Position numbers: made by a program
Assembly: GCF_002113885.1 (NCBI RefSeq)
Contig: NW_018408535.1
Coordinates: 46,691 to 110,690, forward strand
Direction: 5' to 3'
Source of the DNA: Mizuhopecten yessoensis
Lineage: Eukaryota
DNA length: 64,000 bases
Shown here: one piece after another, positions 9,001 to 39,000 of the stretch
How positions within the stretch are numbered: position 1 is the first letter of the stretch
Layout: every line of letters begins with the position of its first letter

Positions 9001-12000
9001 ATCTGTCCGAAATAGAAAACTATTCCTCATGTTTACAGCATATTTCTGTTAATGCTCCATAATTGTTTCATACATTAGTCTGATCAACGGAAACAATTTA
9101 CTACTTTTAAAACATGTAACGTGTGATCGTCTAAATAAATATAACAGCTTGAAGCAAGATAATGTCAATTAAATCAAATGATAATTAGATGGTAATATTA
9201 GATTTATAAATTAATTGATGATAACAATTAAAGTCTGATTATACATGATTTGTAATCTTTATCGACAGAAACCAGTTTAAGTATTCCAACTGAAGTTTTT
9301 ATTTATATTTCAGTTTTTTCCATGAACTATCTCATTATTGTTATCGTACATATCAACGTTACAAAATAATGTTTCCAAAGTAGACAAAAGGGAGGGAATA
9401 TATTATACTACGGTATGGAAAGTAATGACATCACTAAAGGGATCAACGGATTGTGTAAGGTATAAAAAGGATATTAATTGATAGACCCATGACAAATATG
9501 AAATTCTGAACCACATTAGCCATATTCAAATAACCCTATATATAATACAACACATACAGTTATGTTCGTTACGACAACAGCTCCCTTCACAATTGTTACA
9601 TTATATATTTTAATTATGTATTATTATTTTAAAATCGTTACATTAGCCAAAGTCGACCAAACACAATAACACTTTTTTTTTATTAATCTGTGTAGGAGTT
9701 ACATTACAAAGTGTTGAGGCAATGTTGAACATTTCAGCTAATTAAGAAACGCTGACAAAAACAAGACAGCGACGGACGTTTTGTTCAACACATATATCCC
9801 ATTACATGAACAATGCATCAAAAACAAATTGAAAATGTAGCTTAACTTTTTTAACTAACTATGTAGGAAGCATTTGAATGAATACTTGTGGGATTGATCA
9901 TGTGAAATATACCATTGTTTAGCGGGGTTACGTGTAAAACAATATGTAAATTACACCATTACGGCTAATTAACCAGGTCAAAATGATAATACCTTTATGT
10001 TAATACATAAAATGTTACAATGTTTAGAAAACTAATTAACAAAACGCATAGACATTATCACAAATGCATCCAAAACCAGTCATTGCGTCTCTCTATGGGG
10101 ATAATATTACCACTCCCTATTACCGACCTGAGGCAACCAACTTTTTCACATATCCTTTAACAGGACAGGTTATGTTTGCACAGTAAAAAATAAATAAAAA
10201 ATAAACATGTGTATATTTATATAATAATATCTCAGCATAAACACAAACATATGTTTATATTGCTTTTCTATAGCACACTTATCAAATATGAAGCTATCAA
10301 ACACTGTTTATATTACTTAACCGGGTTTCTTTGTTTTTCTATCAAATATCAAAAATACATATTTTATATCAATGTTACACAGTCTAAAATATCTATTCAT
10401 AGAAACGGAATAGATAAAACATATCCTGATACGCTTTTTGATTCGTCGACTGTGAATTGTAAAACTCCATTGTAGTCAACGATAGGGATATATTTGTGCA
10501 GCCTTATATAAACAACCGACGTAAACACTGATCTTAGGATTTTTTTATATCAAGGTACCGTAGAAGAGGATATTTTATTTTCGCGGGTCATTCACGTGAT
10601 CACGAAAATATGATCCCCACAATAATATGACAAGCGTAAAATGAACTGCGATAATACACCTCATCATAGCGAAAATGTGCCTGTTACAATCAATTTCATC
10701 AAAGACTAACCCAACAATTTGTTTTCACTAATGTTAAGTCAAAACTGCGAAATTCAAGCCTTCGTAAATAACCCGTTGTACGGTATTACATTTCGGTGTT
10801 TGTGACGTTTTAAATACGATGTTAGAATTACTTGCTTGTTTAAGTAAGGCATCAATAAATATCAAGAAAGGTCAAGAAGCTGAAGGATTATTTTAAAGGC
10901 GACTTTTAATGTTAATGATCATATCGAAAGTAGTTATTCTGCGGTATGAAATGTTCGTGTGCAACATTAAACTGTATCAGCGGACTGGTAACGTTTGTAC
11001 CCTTTTGATCATTCCGGGTAAATAACTGCCCGGGTTTGTAAGGCTGTAGAAACTCTTTTTGTCAATTATCGTTTTTCAATTGCACTTCGGAGGATCCCAT
11101 TTTTTGGTGGGTTCTTCCTCTTTGATTTCTTAAGAACTGGAGAGCCTGATCTACCTACGTCCGACTTGGGTCTATTAGCAGGCTCGTCCTTTTCATTACT
11201 GCCGTCGGCATTTTTATCACTTCTGGTGTAGTGAGGAAGAGTTCCGGTATTTTTATCACTTCTGGTGTAGTGAGGAAGAGTTCCGGTATTTTTATCGAAC
11301 GCGTATCGACTCTGGATAGGCTTTCTTGTTTTTGCAGCCTTTTTTGCCGGATGTCTGTTTTCCTTCCTATATTGGTCTGCTGGGGTTTTGTTTGATGTCA
11401 CTGATGCGTCAGTGTTGATAGTATCATTTTGACCGACGACTCGTGGGGTCACATCTTCGTTCGTGTTTTGTTCGACTAAATGATGATCGTCATCTGATAC
11501 AGTATTTTGTTTTTGTCGGTCAATATCTCGTGCTACGGATTTCCTTGGTTCCTCTTCAATAATGTCTTTCTGTATTGATAGTTCCGATTCTTTCGATTGT
11601 TCTGTGCGATTTGTCTTTACATCTTCGTTGTTATCCTCAGACGAGACATCATTATGAGCAGGAGTTGATTTTGAAATTGATTCTTTTATAGTTTTCCTAG
11701 ACTGAGAGCCTTGTTGCTTTTCCACATATTTAGTTATTGGTGTGGTTTCATTTCCATGGAAAAACGGCCGTGCTTCTACAGACTCAGACCCTTGTTGCTT
11801 TTCCACATATTTAGTTTTTGGTGTGATTTCAGTTCCATAGAAAGGCCGTGCTTCTACAGAAGTATGATTTTGTCCATATGCTGCTCTCTCCTGTCTTATC
11901 GGTTCGTCTTTGCATTTATCGCAAATGTTGATGTCTCCTATTAAACAATCACATCCTTTCTCTGTTTTGTTCTTTGGAAACTCATGTTGACATTTACAAC

Positions 12001-36000: not shown

Positions 36001-39000
36001 TCATTAACAGTTAATACACATGCACGTGTAATTGACAGATAAAGTATCATACACAGTGACTAACAGATACTTTAGTATAACCTCTCTACTCCGGATCCCA
36101 GTCTGTATAGGTTTTGATATTTAGTCCTGACATTTGTTTTCTCATACTTTAGGCATAGGACCAGACGTCGACATACGAAAAACAATTATCAGTATATAGG
36201 GAATATGTCCTCCGTTTTAAACCGTATTCAGATAGTGAAATACTTTATAAAGCTTGCCCTAAATTTGTTCGCGATTACTGGCATATCTTCTACTAACTAT
36301 TTAGTTTTGATGTTTGACCATTTGTAGCTGCATATACGAAGTGGGTGTATGATAGACGCTATTGGCTATTTCAAGATTGGTTCTTATTTATGCATTAAAA
36401 TCAAAGGAAACTGGTATTACCAAATTGATTTTGCAGTCCTAGTTGTAGGAATATCGATTTTAATGTCATGAATTCTAGATTAAATTGACAAAATAGTCGA
36501 GAACGTAAACACGGTAAGTAGTTCACAGTATGTTTGATTTTGTTGAAGTGCATTAACGCTGTGATATATATTTTGTGTTGGAAAATCTGTTGAAACTCAG
36601 TAAATGTAACATCGTTCCTGAATATCAGACATGATTATCCGACATAAAATTACAAAATAGAAATAATGATATTTGTTATCTTTTAAAGATCTTTACAAGT
36701 AGTAGTACCTTCTGGTGTGGAGTGACTCCAACATTCTGACCAGCCGCTGTATGTAAGACATGTCGACCACAGTCCCTGTGTGACGTCACCTGTGGGGACA
36801 GTGGTTATCTGCCAGAATGGTAGTGCTACAGCTAGGATGTGGACAGAGATGGCAGCCAACGTCACACTTAGGGCGGCTATCACACAACATCTTCTGGGCT
36901 TCATGTTAACACGCTACTGTCTTATAACCATTAGTCTGGCCTATTAACTAGGATCCAGGCTACACCAATGTTTGGTAATAAATGTCATCAGAATTGTTGT
37001 TTCATTAATACATATTTTATCTAATACATACAAAAGTTAACGTAATACATGTGGTGTGTGCTTTACTGCAAATAAAGAGCTGTGTTATTCAGAAGAAGCT
37101 TCTGTTCAATACATGTTCCCCCAAAGAATGCTGTTCTGAAACTACTACATTGTAGCTGTTAAAACACAAGTAAGATACGCGTCATTGCTATAACACCGCA
37201 TTATTCATACCCTGTGAGAAATTAAGCGGCAAAACCGGTCCCATCTTCTATAAATAATTCAGCTTGGTGATTAGGGTACAATGTTAACTGGAAAGAAAGT
37301 TGCATAAAGCTCATTAGTCCCAGCCTAATTATCCGGAATTACTACTTACCAATACCATGGTGACCAATGTCCAAATACCTTGGTGATCATTGTATGGTGA
37401 ACAGTCTCTGAATACTATTGTGAACGTGGTGATCATTTTACGAAATTACCTTGATGGTCAGTGTTCGAATACTATAGTGACAATTGTCCGATAGTAATGG
37501 TTATTATTGTCCGAATACCTTGGTGATCATTGTCCAAATACCTTGGTGATCATTGCCCGAATACCTTGGTGATCATTGTCCAAATACCTTGGTGATCATT
37601 GTTCAAATACCTTGGTGATCATTGTCCCAATATCTTGGTGATCAGTGATCTTATACCTTGGTGATCATCGGCCGAATACAATGGTGATTATTTCCGAAAA
37701 CCGTGGTGATCATTGTCCAAATACCTTGGTGATCATTGTTCCAATATCTTGGTGATCAGTGACCTTATACCTTGGTGATCATTGTCCGAATACCTTTGTG
37801 ATCATTTCTTGGTGATCATTGTTCGAATACCTTGGGGATCATTGTCCGAATACCTTGGTGATCATTTCCGAATACCTTGGTGATCATTGTCCAAATACAT
37901 TGGTGATCATTTCCGAATACCTTGGTGATCATTGCCCCAATACCTTGTTGATCATTGTCCGAATACCTTGGTGATAATTGCCCCAATAACCTTGGTGATC
38001 ATTATCCAAATACCTTGGTGGTCATTTCCGAATACTTTGGTGATCACTGTCCAAATACCTTGGTGATCATTGTCCCAATATCTTGGTGATCAGTGACCTT
38101 ATACCTTCGTGATAATCGGCGAATACAATGGTGATTATTTCCGAAAACCTTGGTGCTCATTGTCCAAATCCCTTGGTGATCATTGTTCCAATATCTTGGT
38201 GATCAGTGACCTTATACCTTCGTGATAATCGGCGAATACAATGGTGATTATTTCCGAAAACCTTGGTGATCATTGTCCAAATACCTTGGTGATCATTGTT
38301 CCAATATCTTGGTGATCAGTGACCTTATACCTTGGTGATCATCGGCGAATACAATGGTGATTGTTTCCGAATACCTTGGTAATCATTGCCCCAATACCTT
38401 GGTTATCATTGTCCGAATACCTTGGTGATAATTGTCCGAATACCTTGGTGATCATTGTCCAAATACATTGGTGATCATTGCCCCAATACCTTGGTGATCA
38501 TTTCCGAATACCTTAGTGATCATTTCCGAATACCTTGGTGATCATTGCCCCAATACCTTGGTAATCATTGTCAAAATACCTTGGTGGTCATTTCCGAATA
38601 CTTTGGTGATCATTGTCCGAATACCTTGATAACCATTGTCCGAATACCTTGGTGATCATTCCCCCAATACCTTGGTGATCATTGTCCGAATACCTTGGTG
38701 ATCATTTCCGAATACCTTGGTAATCATTGCCCCAATATCTTGGTGATCATTGTCCGAATACATTGGTGATCATTGTCCGAATACCTTGGTGATGAGTGTC
38801 CAAATAAATTGGTGATCACTGTCCGAATATCTTGGTTATCATTGTCCGAATACCTTGGTGATCATTGTCCGAATATCTTGGTTATCATAGTCCAACGACC
38901 TTTGTGATCATTTCCGAATACCTTGGTAATCATTGTCCGAATACCTTGGTGATCGTTGTCCGAATACCTTGGTGATGAGTGTCCAAATACCTTGATGATG

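What the first reader, a model, noticed from the sequence alone, without database searches (positions are those of the whole stretch)
11066..36904. Tandem cluster of three divergent claudin/PMP22-like genes, two with very long tails
Seen: same strand, same 3-exon phase-1 architecture, identical 144-nt exon 2, and the W..GL[WF]..C..C loop signature, but low identity and cytoplasmic tails of roughly 70, 450 and 580 aa. Established: classical claudin tails are usually short and often end in a PDZ-binding YV, which is absent here. Inference: a lineage-specific tetraspan family with signalling or scaffold tails.
Basis: partly seen in the sequence, partly recalled or inferred. Interest (0 to 1): 0.65.

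Follow-up and report, generated by a model that had tools for sequence, protein, structure and literature searches.

The report
Three scallop claudin-like genes, long tails
Three neighbouring scallop genes encode divergent four-pass membrane proteins of the claudin/PMP22 superfamily, and two of them carry unusually long, cysteine-studded cytoplasmic tails of unknown function.

Summary
Three genes lie head to tail on the minus strand: A at 15457..11066, B at 22856..20522 and C at 36904..31125. Each has three coding exons, GT-AG introns in phase 1 and a 144-nt exon 2.

The loop-1 motif W..GL[WF]xxC(8-10)C occurs only in the three first exons, and in 0 of 100 shuffles. Tails after TM4 are about 444, 62 and 579 aa, and none ends in a PDZ ligand.

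Pfam cut-offs are not reached, either exon by exon or with full-length database stand-ins. Superfamily membership rests on other evidence:
- 23 of 26 phmmer relatives match PF00822.
- hhalign gives 99.8 % probability.
- An HMM of outside relatives picks exactly the nine exons, in order.
- The ESM Atlas model of an ortholog gives TM 0.85-0.88 to PMP22/claudin clusters.

Gene B equals Mizuhopecten yessoensis LOC110460519, an uncharacterised protein. C has a Ylistrum ortholog. A and C gave no database protein from this genome.

The A and C tails share a Cys/His module with no relatives elsewhere.

Verdict: a real, scallop-restricted clade and a new variant of a known superfamily. Tail function is inferred, not shown.

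The parts
15232..15457 (-). Gene A exon 1: ATG, TM1 and extracellular loop 1 with W..GLWxxC(8)C and an NTT glycosylation sequon.
   Evidence: HMM of outside relatives E 4.9e-9, HMM positions 11-63.
12968..13111 (-). Gene A exon 2 (144 nt, phase 1 to phase 1): TM2 and the first half of TM3.
   Evidence: HMM E 5.5e-5, positions 71-114.
11066..12552 (-). Gene A exon 3: second half of TM3, short loop 2, TM4 and a tail of about 444 aa, then the stop codon.
   Evidence: HMM E 2e-10, positions 120-164.
11912..12154 (-). Gene A tail: Cys/His-rich conserved module (..STCMTP..CG..PCPYSLFCCKCQH..CDC..GDI.ICDKC).
   Evidence: BLASTP against the C tail: 38/102 identical, E 3e-19. Alignment; coordinates checked.
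11699..11857 (-). Gene A tail: in-frame tandem duplication of a 27-aa unit. A second in-frame repeat of 13 aa x 2.3 lies at 11210..11296.
22649..22856 (-). Gene B exon 1: ATG, TM1 and loop 1 with W..GLFxxC(9)C.
   Evidence: 100 % identical to P0002 residues 1-69.
21519..21662 (-). Gene B exon 2 (144 nt).
   Evidence: 100 % identical to P0002 residues 71-117.
20522..20856 (-). Gene B exon 3: TM3b, TM4, a 62-aa tail and the stop codon.
   Evidence: 100 % identical to P0002 residues 119-228.
20609..20632 (-). Gene B tail motif ..SRRSSKV.., conserved in the Pecten and Argopecten orthologs and in gene C.
36709..36904 (-). Gene C exon 1: ATG, TM1 and loop 1 with W..GLWxxC(8)C.
   Evidence: 68 % identical to P0001 residues 1-65. 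HMM E 4e-15.
34788..34931 (-). Gene C exon 2 (144 nt).
   Evidence: 70 % identical to P0001 residues 67-112.
31125..33022 (-). Gene C exon 3: TM3b, TM4, a tail of about 579 aa and the stop codon.
   Evidence: 46 % identical to P0001 over 402 aa, E 4e-96.
32700..32723 (-). Gene C proximal tail motif ..LRRSSRV.. (basophilic-kinase-type site, inferred).
32541..32603 (-). Gene C tail 'cysteine string': 10 Cys in 21 residues. It is conserved in the Ylistrum ortholog and absent from A and B.
31974..32267 (-). Gene C tail: Cys/His-rich conserved module, shared with gene A and, for its first part, with the Ylistrum ortholog.
31581..31760 (-). Gene C tail acidic D/N/Y-rich patch (net charge about -11 per 40 aa), followed by a basic end. 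Gene A has the same layout at 11411..11650.
33376..34806 (-). 68-nt minisatellite filling intron 2 of gene C. Each unit repeats the last 19 nt of exon 2 plus the donor site.
   Evidence: 21 copies, 95 % matches. (20 copies of the 27-nt junction core, 13 of them exact).
12790..13011 (-). 111-nt tandem duplication covering the last 44 nt of gene A exon 2, its donor site and 67 nt of intron 2.
   Evidence: 3 mismatches in 111, second donor intact.

Best explanation
The region holds three real protein-coding paralogs made by tandem duplication. The host is a scallop genome, most likely Mizuhopecten yessoensis or a very close relative. Each gene encodes a four-pass membrane protein of the PMP22/EMP/MP20/claudin superfamily.

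Shown here:
- The gene structures and the paralogy.
- The loop-1 signature and the superfamily homology.
- The length and hydrophilic composition of the tails.
- Conservation of particular tail motifs.

Inferred working model:
- The N-terminus and the tail face the cytoplasm.
- The first extracellular loop, held by the two conserved cysteines, is the face that contacts another membrane or a partner membrane protein, as in other members of the superfamily.
- The cysteines just after TM4 and the cysteine string of gene C are palmitoylated, and so pin the tail to the membrane.
- The conserved RRSS site is a kinase switch.
- The Cys/His module of A and C is a small metal-binding or protein-binding unit.
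- The rest of the tail (an acidic patch, then a basic end) is disordered and recruits cytoplasmic partners.
- Gene B is the short-tailed form. It keeps only the proximal motif and ends where C's cysteine string begins.

My odds: real genes of this superfamily, about 0.9; tails acting as membrane-tethered scaffold or signalling arms, about 0.4.
For: Gene structure:
- 6 of 6 introns are GT-AG and in phase 1, and exon 2 is 144 nt in all three genes.
- Gene B's three exons match database protein P0002 letter for letter (residues 1-69, 71-117, 119-228). The two junction residues are those given by the split codons.
- P0002 is named LOC110460519 of Mizuhopecten yessoensis. It has orthologs in Pecten maximus (70 %) and Argopecten irradians (65 %).
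- Gene C's exons match Ylistrum balloti LOC132549190 (P0001) collinearly at 68 %, 70 % and 44-46 %, with no indel at either junction.

Superfamily homology:
- phmmer with P0001 against 1.84 billion representatives gave 26 proteins at E <= 0.001.
- 23 of those 26 match PF00822 at E <= 0.01.
- 9 of the 10 scanned in detail exceed its curated cut-off.
- hhalign of the scallop clade (4 sequences) against 22 outside relatives: probability 99.8 %, E 8.7e-29, 180 columns.
- An HMM of those 22 relatives finds all 9 exon peptides (E 4e-15 to 5.5e-5, Z = 9). They fall in collinear order: exon 1 on HMM positions 7-66, exon 2 on 71-116, exon 3 on 120-169.
- The motif W(X>8)GLWXXC(8-10X)C is given as the superfamily consensus in PMC3879130 (section 4 read). 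It is met in A and C; B has GLF.
- The Atlas's own model of P0001 residues 1-170 has TM 0.85-0.88 to TMEM204, mollusc PMP22_Claudin clusters and lens MP20.

Tails:
- GRAVY is -1.1 to -1.6, and the tails are rich in S/T.
- The A and C tails align over the module at E 3e-19, and over about 400 aa by tblastn at E 8e-23.
- A and C share the same charge layout.
- The RRSS[KR]V motif is kept in B of three species and in C.

Precedents:
- Membrane-proximal cysteines of claudins are palmitoylated (PMC8909277, passages seen).
Against: - No Pfam family reaches its curated cut-off. This holds for all 9 exon peptides, for P0001 (PMP22_Claudin 10.5 bits against 26.7), and for P0002, P0027 and P0028 (best is Claudin_3 at 20.3 bits against 28.7).
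- A profile of the scallop clade alone finds no solved structure (claudin-18 at E 0.33). P0002 alone gives claudin-18 at E 0.011, and P0001 alone gives claudin-4 at E 2.4.
- No transcript evidence could be examined.
- Gene A has no ortholog or protein record in the databases searched: 0 hits among 7999 scored candidates.
- Gene C's own product was not found either; only its Ylistrum ortholog was.
- The tail modules have no relatives outside this clade (every hit aligns to the first ~215 residues). They have no structural look-alike either (TM <= 0.25). Their roles therefore rest on composition alone.
- The second half of the module (CDC..CDKC) is missing from the Ylistrum ortholog, which argues against a strict structural need for it.
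- The fold evidence is for an ortholog's stored model, not for a model of the window's own proteins.
Confidence: 0.7

Rival explanations
1. They are auxiliary subunits of ion channels or receptors, in the manner of TARP/gamma subunits or C. elegans HPO-30. In this reading the long tails position the partner receptor at synapses or other membrane domains.
For: - The family profile (A1) matches TARP gamma-2 at E 6.7e-16, about as well as lens MP20 (8.1e-17) and claudin-18 (9.3e-16).
- TARP gamma-8 chains of 422-423 aa align only up to residue ~223, so a tail of about 200 aa has precedent in the superfamily.
- HPO-30 is a claudin-superfamily protein that localises acetylcholine receptors (PMC6083452, start of abstract in the listing). 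It uses a disordered tail (PMC10411975, abstract read).
Against: - None of the three ends in a class I PDZ ligand.
- The profile matches came from an alignment dominated by outside relatives. The scallop clade alone gives no TARP hit.
- No partner, expression site or neuron specificity is known.
Confidence: 0.2
2. They are junctional claudins in the strict sense: strand-forming sealing components of septate or tight-like junctions. In this reading the tails serve only trafficking or turnover.
For: - The full claudin loop-1 signature is present.
- Claudin-18 is the best single solved match of P0002 (E 0.011).
- Sub-threshold, end-to-end matches to claudin-clan models exist: Claudin_3 at E 6e-4 in P0028 and PMP22_Claudin residues 8-153 on profile positions 4-160 of 161 in P0001.
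Against: - There is no PDZ-binding end.
- By alignment, loop 2 is only about 8-12 residues, as in the short PF00822-type relatives of 162-190 aa.
- The family is equidistant from MP20, TARP and claudin.
- Strand formation cannot be tested here.
Confidence: 0.15
3. Genes A and/or C are decaying copies or mis-modelled loci. Their long exon-3 frames are not made into protein, and only gene B is functional.
For: - Neither A nor C gave a protein record from this genome: 0 hits for A, and only the Ylistrum protein for C. B did give one.
- Both have tandem duplications of the exon 2 / donor junction inside intron 2. These could disturb splicing.
Against: - The stop-free frames of 497 and 639 codons lie in AT-rich DNA, where stop codons should occur about every 14 codons (my estimate from the composition).
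- All splice sites are intact.
- The A and C tails keep a shared module at 37 % identity, although the rest has diverged.
- C has a full-length ortholog with the same layout in another scallop genus.
- The repeats inside the A tail are in frame.
Confidence: 0.07

Closest known systems
PMP22 / EMP / lens MP20 (LIM2) group of Pfam PF00822
   Same: - Four hydrophobic segments.
- The W..GLW..C..C loop 1.
- A short loop 2.
- The best solved match of the family profile is lens MP20, E 8.1e-17.
- The Atlas model of the ortholog has TM 0.87 to the MP20 cluster.
- The nearest relatives of 162-190 aa pass the PF00822 cut-off.
   Different: - The scallop proteins themselves fall below the cut-off.
- Tails of 444 and 579 aa compare with a median of about 13 aa in the 24 outside relatives.
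Classical claudins (for example claudin-4, -15, -18, -19)
   Same: - The loop-1 signature, as stated in PMC3879130 section 4.
- Cysteines next to TM4 at the place where claudins are palmitoylated (PMC8909277, passages seen).
- Family-profile matches at E 9e-16 to 4e-8.
   Different: - No YV or other PDZ ligand at the end.
- Much longer tails.
- A shorter loop 2.
- No direct significant sequence match.
TARP / voltage-gated calcium channel gamma subunits (gamma-2, gamma-8)
   Same: - Same superfamily.
- A long, basic cytoplasmic tail rich in Ser/Thr. That TARP tails are phospho-regulated is recalled, not taken from a call.
   Different: - No TTPV-type end.
- The tails are two to three times longer, and carry Cys-rich modules that TARPs lack as far as one search shows (no tail hits).
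- No evidence of a receptor partner.
C. elegans HPO-30 (claudin-like, disordered signalling tail)
   Same: A claudin-superfamily tetraspan whose function lies in a disordered cytoplasmic tail without a PDZ ligand (PMC10411975 abstract; PMC3879130 passage on HPO-30 lacking a PDZ motif).
   Different: - No sequence relation of the tails was detected.
- The HPO-30 tail is much shorter (recalled).
TMEM204 (claudin-like protein 24)
   Same: It is the top structural neighbour of the ortholog's Atlas model: TM 0.85 over 168 residues.
   Different: - It is a vertebrate protein cluster without a Pfam family.
- No sequence-level link was tested here.
- The neighbour is a lead only.

Membership tests
PMP22/EMP/MP20/claudin superfamily (Pfam PF00822 and clan) | Four transmembrane segments. 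| tested here: met
   Kyte-Doolittle windows, exon by exon: TM1 in exon 1, TM2 and the start of TM3 in exon 2, the rest of TM3 and TM4 in exon 3. The in/out orientation is inferred.
PMP22/EMP/MP20/claudin superfamily (Pfam PF00822 and clan) | Loop-1 consensus W(X>8)GLWXXC(8-10X)C (PMC3879130, section 4). | tested here: met
   A and C match in full; B has GLF in place of GLW. G, C and C are invariant and W, L, W nearly so across the 26 relatives.
PMP22/EMP/MP20/claudin superfamily (Pfam PF00822 and clan) | Score above the curated Pfam gathering cut-off. | tested here: not met
   0 of 9 exon peptides reach it. P0001 scores 10.5 bits against 26.7. P0002, P0027 and P0028 reach no cut-off. The joined models of A and C were not searched.
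PMP22/EMP/MP20/claudin superfamily (Pfam PF00822 and clan) | Homology to accepted members by profile methods. | tested here: met
   hhalign 99.8 %, E 8.7e-29. 23 of 26 phmmer relatives match PF00822. HMM of the relatives against the exons: E 4e-15 to 5.5e-5, collinear.
PMP22/EMP/MP20/claudin superfamily (Pfam PF00822 and clan) | Claudin-type fold. | tested here: inconclusive
   The Atlas's stored model of the ortholog P0001 (residues 1-170) has TM 0.85-0.88 to PMP22_Claudin clusters. My own structure prediction could not be run.
Classical claudins | C-terminal PDZ-binding motif (..YV). | tested here: not met
   The ends are ..EKR..LLE and ..GQF.
Classical claudins | Formation of junctional strands and a paracellular barrier. 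| not testable with these tools
   This needs localisation and freeze-fracture or barrier assays.
Classical claudins | Closer to claudins than to other branches of the superfamily. | tested here: inconclusive
   Family profile: MP20 8e-17, TARP gamma-2 7e-16, claudin-18 9e-16. P0002 alone: claudin-18 at E 0.011. No tree with named reference sequences could be built.
TARP / gamma subunits | Long cytoplasmic tail ending in a class I PDZ ligand. | tested here: not met
   The tails are long in A and C, but no [ST]-x-hydrophobic end is present.
TARP / gamma subunits | Association with a glutamate receptor or calcium channel. | not testable with these tools
   No partner data are available.

The most novel reading that the evidence does not exclude
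The A and C tails form a previously undescribed kind of cytoplasmic arm on a claudin-fold protein. A cysteine string is multiply palmitoylated and re-anchors the tail about 90 residues after TM4. Next comes a clade-specific Cys/His module that binds a metal or a partner. An acidic and then a basic disordered stretch follows.

Together these would turn a small adhesion-type tetraspan into a membrane-tethered signalling scaffold. The scaffold would be tuned by the conserved RRSS phospho-site. Short-tailed gene B would act as a partner or a competitor in mixed complexes.
Probability: 0.25. Interest if true: 0.55.

Novelty: new variant of a known kind. Interest (0 to 1): 0.35.

Why it matters
The claudin/PMP22 superfamily is well studied in vertebrates, flies and worms, but hardly at all in molluscs. 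My searches found no paper on bivalve or scallop claudin-like genes, nor on these loci.

This cluster shows a small tetraspan acquiring cytoplasmic tails of 450-580 aa within one gene family. A short-tailed and two long-tailed copies sit side by side. That gives a natural experiment on what such tails add.

It also exposes two apparently unannotated genes. It offers defined motifs (RRSS, the cysteine string, the Cys/His module) that can be tested directly. If the tails prove inert, the finding is an ordinary lineage-specific expansion.

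Tried and rejected
- **Exon-by-exon Pfam** gave only sub-threshold hits: Clc-like E 7e-4 for B exon 1 and Claudin_2 E 0.002 for A exon 1. It could not settle membership.
- **MARVEL** was the top Pfam row for P0001 (E 0.0026, 18.2 bits against 32.8). I rejected it because the loop-1 motif, hhalign and the relatives all point to PF00822.
- **DUF4199 and YfhO** rows for P0002 I treated as hydrophobic-segment noise.
- **A fourth paralog** was sought by tblastn with all nine exon peptides and by HMM over 504 ORFs. None was found. A weak Cys-rich match at 63457..63507 (E 0.019) lies opposite a reverse-transcriptase fragment and was set aside.
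- **A relic of the long tail downstream of gene B's stop** was not found at E < 1.
- **Tail homologs:**
  - No hit of P0001 outside its first ~215 residues.
  - No Pfam family at its cut-off for the A or C exon 3.
  - No usable Atlas hit by features, and TM <= 0.25 by structure, for P0001 residues 245-450.
- **Rfam and tRNA scans of the window:** nothing.
- **The Atlas** does not hold the window's own exon-3 peptide.
- **The minisatellite as a mini-exon array:** I considered that the 68-nt minisatellite supplies alternative 33-nt mini-exons. I rate this unlikely. The donor-to-acceptor distance within one unit is only 35 nt, and the insert would lengthen TM3. The Ylistrum ortholog has no insert at that junction.

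Full report
**Scope and limits.** Every statement about a full-length protein rests on a database protein returned by a search (P0001, P0002, P0027, P0028), not on a model joined by me. The window has one N run (6588..6967), which lies outside the finding and was left alone. I do not take the contig for human: its only close protein matches are scallop proteins.

**1. What is there.** Three genes lie head to tail on the minus strand.

| Gene | Exon 1 | Exon 2 | Exon 3 (with stop) | Codons | Introns (nt) |
|---|---|---|---|---|---|
| A | 15457..15232 (226 nt) | 13111..12968 (144 nt) | 12552..11066 (1487 nt) | 618 | 2120, 415 |
| B | 22856..22649 (208 nt) | 21662..21519 (144 nt) | 20856..20522 (335 nt) | 228 | 986, 662 |
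| C | 36904..36709 (196 nt) | 34931..34788 (144 nt) | 33022..31125 (1898 nt) | 745 | 1777, 1765 |

All six introns begin with GT, end with AG after a pyrimidine-rich stretch, and lie in phase 1. The genes are separated by 5064 and 8268 nt. The finding's two coordinates are the stop codon of A and the ATG of C.

**2. Independent support for the splice models.**
- Gene B's three exon peptides are 100 % identical to residues 1-69, 71-117 and 119-228 of database protein P0002, which is 228 aa long, the length I predicted. Residues 70 (Ala) and 118 (Val) are what the split codons read encode.
- P0002 is 'uncharacterized protein LOC110460519 [Mizuhopecten yessoensis]'. Orthologs exist in Pecten maximus (70 %) and Argopecten irradians (65 %). 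These were the only 3 proteins with E <= 0.001 among 2908 candidates.
- Gene C's exons match Ylistrum balloti LOC132549190 (P0001, 587 aa) in order: 68 % for exon 1, 70 % for exon 2, and 46 % over 402 aa of exon 3. There is no indel at either junction.
- Whether these NCBI models rest on transcripts I could not check.
- Gene A found nothing: 0 hits among 7999 scored candidates of 271-865 aa.
- The gene C query returned only the Ylistrum protein, 1 hit among 8000 scored candidates of 347-1105 aa. A and C of this genome therefore appear to have no protein record in that length range.

**3. Paralogy.**
- Each exon peptide finds its two counterparts, and nothing else in the window, at E < 0.01. 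The single exception is a Cys-rich match at E 0.019 opposite a transposon fragment.
- Identities are 34-39 % for exon 1, 33-39 % for exon 2, and 42-47 % for the TM part of exon 3.
- The three exon 2 sequences align without gaps, with 44 of 144 columns invariant. These are old duplicates, not recent copies.
- Gene A's exons are closer to P0001 and the B group than to any outside relative.
- In a tree of 28 database proteins, the B orthologs plus the C ortholog form one branch with support 95/91.

**4. Family.** Pfam does not settle membership.
- 0 of 9 exon peptides reach a cut-off.
- P0001 scores 10.5 bits on PMP22_Claudin against a cut-off of 26.7, although it aligns end to end.
- P0002 and its two orthologs reach no cut-off.

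Other tests do settle it.
- phmmer with P0001 against 1.84 billion representatives gave 26 proteins at E <= 0.001, including P0001 itself and P0002 at 1.2e-28.
- 23 of these 26 match PF00822 at E <= 0.01.
- 9 of the 10 scanned in detail exceed its cut-off.
- hhalign of the scallop clade (4 sequences) against 22 outside relatives gave probability 99.8 %, E 8.7e-29, over 180 columns.
- An HMM built only from those 22 relatives hits all nine exon peptides (E 4e-15 to 5.5e-5). They fall in order: exon 1 on positions 7-66, exon 2 on 71-116, exon 3 on 120-169. Among 504 six-frame ORFs of at least 40 aa, the top nine are exactly the nine exon-bearing frames, and the tenth has E 0.027.
- The loop-1 consensus W(X>8)GLWXXC(8-10X)C (PMC3879130, section 4 read) is met in A and C. 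B has GLF.
- That pattern occurs nowhere else in six frames, and in 0 of 100 shuffles.
- The ESM Atlas's stored model of P0001 residues 1-170 has TM 0.85-0.88 to TMEM204, mollusc PMP22_Claudin clusters and lens MP20.

Within the superfamily the position is open.
- The family profile is about equally near lens MP20 (8e-17), TARP gamma-2 (7e-16) and claudin-18 (9e-16).
- The scallop clade alone gives no significant solved match.
- My own structure prediction could not be run.

**5. The tails.**
- After the last hydrophobic segment the tails are 444 aa (A), 62 aa (B) and 579 aa (C). They are strongly hydrophilic (GRAVY -1.1 to -1.6), and none ends in a PDZ ligand.
- Among the 24 outside relatives the median tail is about 13 aa. 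Two exceed 100 aa (276 and 142). The Ylistrum C ortholog has 430 aa.
- TM4 and the tail lie in one uninterrupted frame, so the tails do not depend on any splice call.
- Conserved pieces:
  - One to three cysteines lie directly after TM4.
  - An RRSS[KR]V motif is kept in B of three species and in C.
  - C has a cysteine string with 10 Cys in 21 residues, also present in the Ylistrum ortholog.
  - A, C and Ylistrum share a Cys/His module: 38 of 102 identical between A and C, E 3e-19.
  - The second half of that module is missing in Ylistrum.
- The A and C tails share one layout: a basic S/T-rich part, the Cys module, an acidic patch, then a basic end. They align weakly over about 400 aa.
- B's tail aligns with the proximal 137 residues of C's exon 3 and stops just before the cysteine string.
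- The A tail contains two in-frame tandem duplications, of 27 aa and 13 aa. This shows how such tails grow.
- No relative of the tail was found anywhere.

**6. How it most likely works.**
- Shown: three intact tetraspan genes of the PF00822 superfamily, and conserved tail motifs.
- Inferred from the superfamily:
  - Both termini face the cytoplasm.
  - Loop 1 is held by the two cysteines and forms the contact face.
- Inferred from composition and precedent:
  - The juxtamembrane cysteines are palmitoylated, as in claudins (PMC8909277, passages seen).
  - The cysteine string is a second lipid anchor. The analogy to cysteine-string proteins is recalled, not taken from a call.
  - RRSS is a basophilic-kinase site (recalled consensus).
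  - The long tail is a disordered recruiting arm, as shown for the claudin-like protein HPO-30 (PMC10411975, abstract read).
- Rivals are a TARP-like auxiliary-subunit role, a strict junctional-claudin role, and non-functional A and C genes. They are weighed in their own sections.

**7. Known or new.**
- The superfamily, its motif and the variety of its C-termini are known. PMC3879130 states, in a passage I saw, that many related proteins lack the PDZ peptide.
- Gene B is an annotated but uncharacterised locus.
- I found no paper on scallop or bivalve claudin-like genes or on these loci. Supplements were closed and could hold gene lists that I did not see.
- The long tails with a clade-specific Cys/His module and a cysteine string are, as far as these searches reach, undescribed.
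- I class the finding as a new variant of a known kind, of moderate interest.

**8. Left unchecked.**
- Transcript support.
- Synteny in other molluscs, because no eukaryote genome collection was on hand.
- Searches with the joined A and C models.
- A fold prediction of my own.

Noticed in passing
window 33376..34806 (intron 2 of gene C): Intron 2 is almost filled by a 68-nt minisatellite (21 copies, 95 % matches). Each unit contains the last 19 nt of exon 2 plus the donor site G|GTAAGT. I counted 20 copies of the 27-nt junction core, 13 of them exact, at 68-nt spacing. The gene therefore has about 20 near-identical donor sites in a row. Each unit also holds a CAG that lies 33 nt before the next donor.
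   Followed up: partly
window 12790..13011 (gene A exon 2 / intron 2): A 111-nt tandem duplication (3 mismatches in 111) copies the last 44 nt of exon 2, the donor and 67 nt of intron. It is a second, independent duplication across the same exon-intron junction in a paralog. Read-through from the first donor meets TAA after two codons. I cannot explain why this junction was duplicated twice.
   Followed up: partly
whole window: About a third of the window (20,899 of 64,000 nt) lies in tandem-repeat arrays with TRF score >= 100. Examples are 37427..40579 (23-nt unit), 41318..43924 (38-nt unit) and 58727..61404 (53-nt unit, 99 % matches).
   Followed up: no
window 50850..51563, 61740..62303, 62793..63698 (+ strand): These are fragments of non-LTR retrotransposons: RVT_1 at E 1.4e-11 and 7.8e-14, and Exo_endo_phos_2 at E 8.8e-10. 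The frames are broken, so the copies are probably dead.
   Followed up: partly
window 11699..11857 and 11210..11296 (gene A tail): Two in-frame tandem duplications lie inside the coding tail: 27 aa x 2 and 13 aa x 2.3. They suggest the tail lengthens by slippage.
   Followed up: yes
genes A (11066..15457) and C (31125..36904): Neither gene's product was found in the 5.8-billion-protein collection at the lengths searched, although gene B's was. They may be unannotated, or annotated in a split or fused form. The 'longer' and 'shorter' length classes were not searched.
   Followed up: partly
window 6588..6967: This is the only N run. It is flanked by a proline-rich 31-nt repeat array at 6968..7413.
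   Followed up: no
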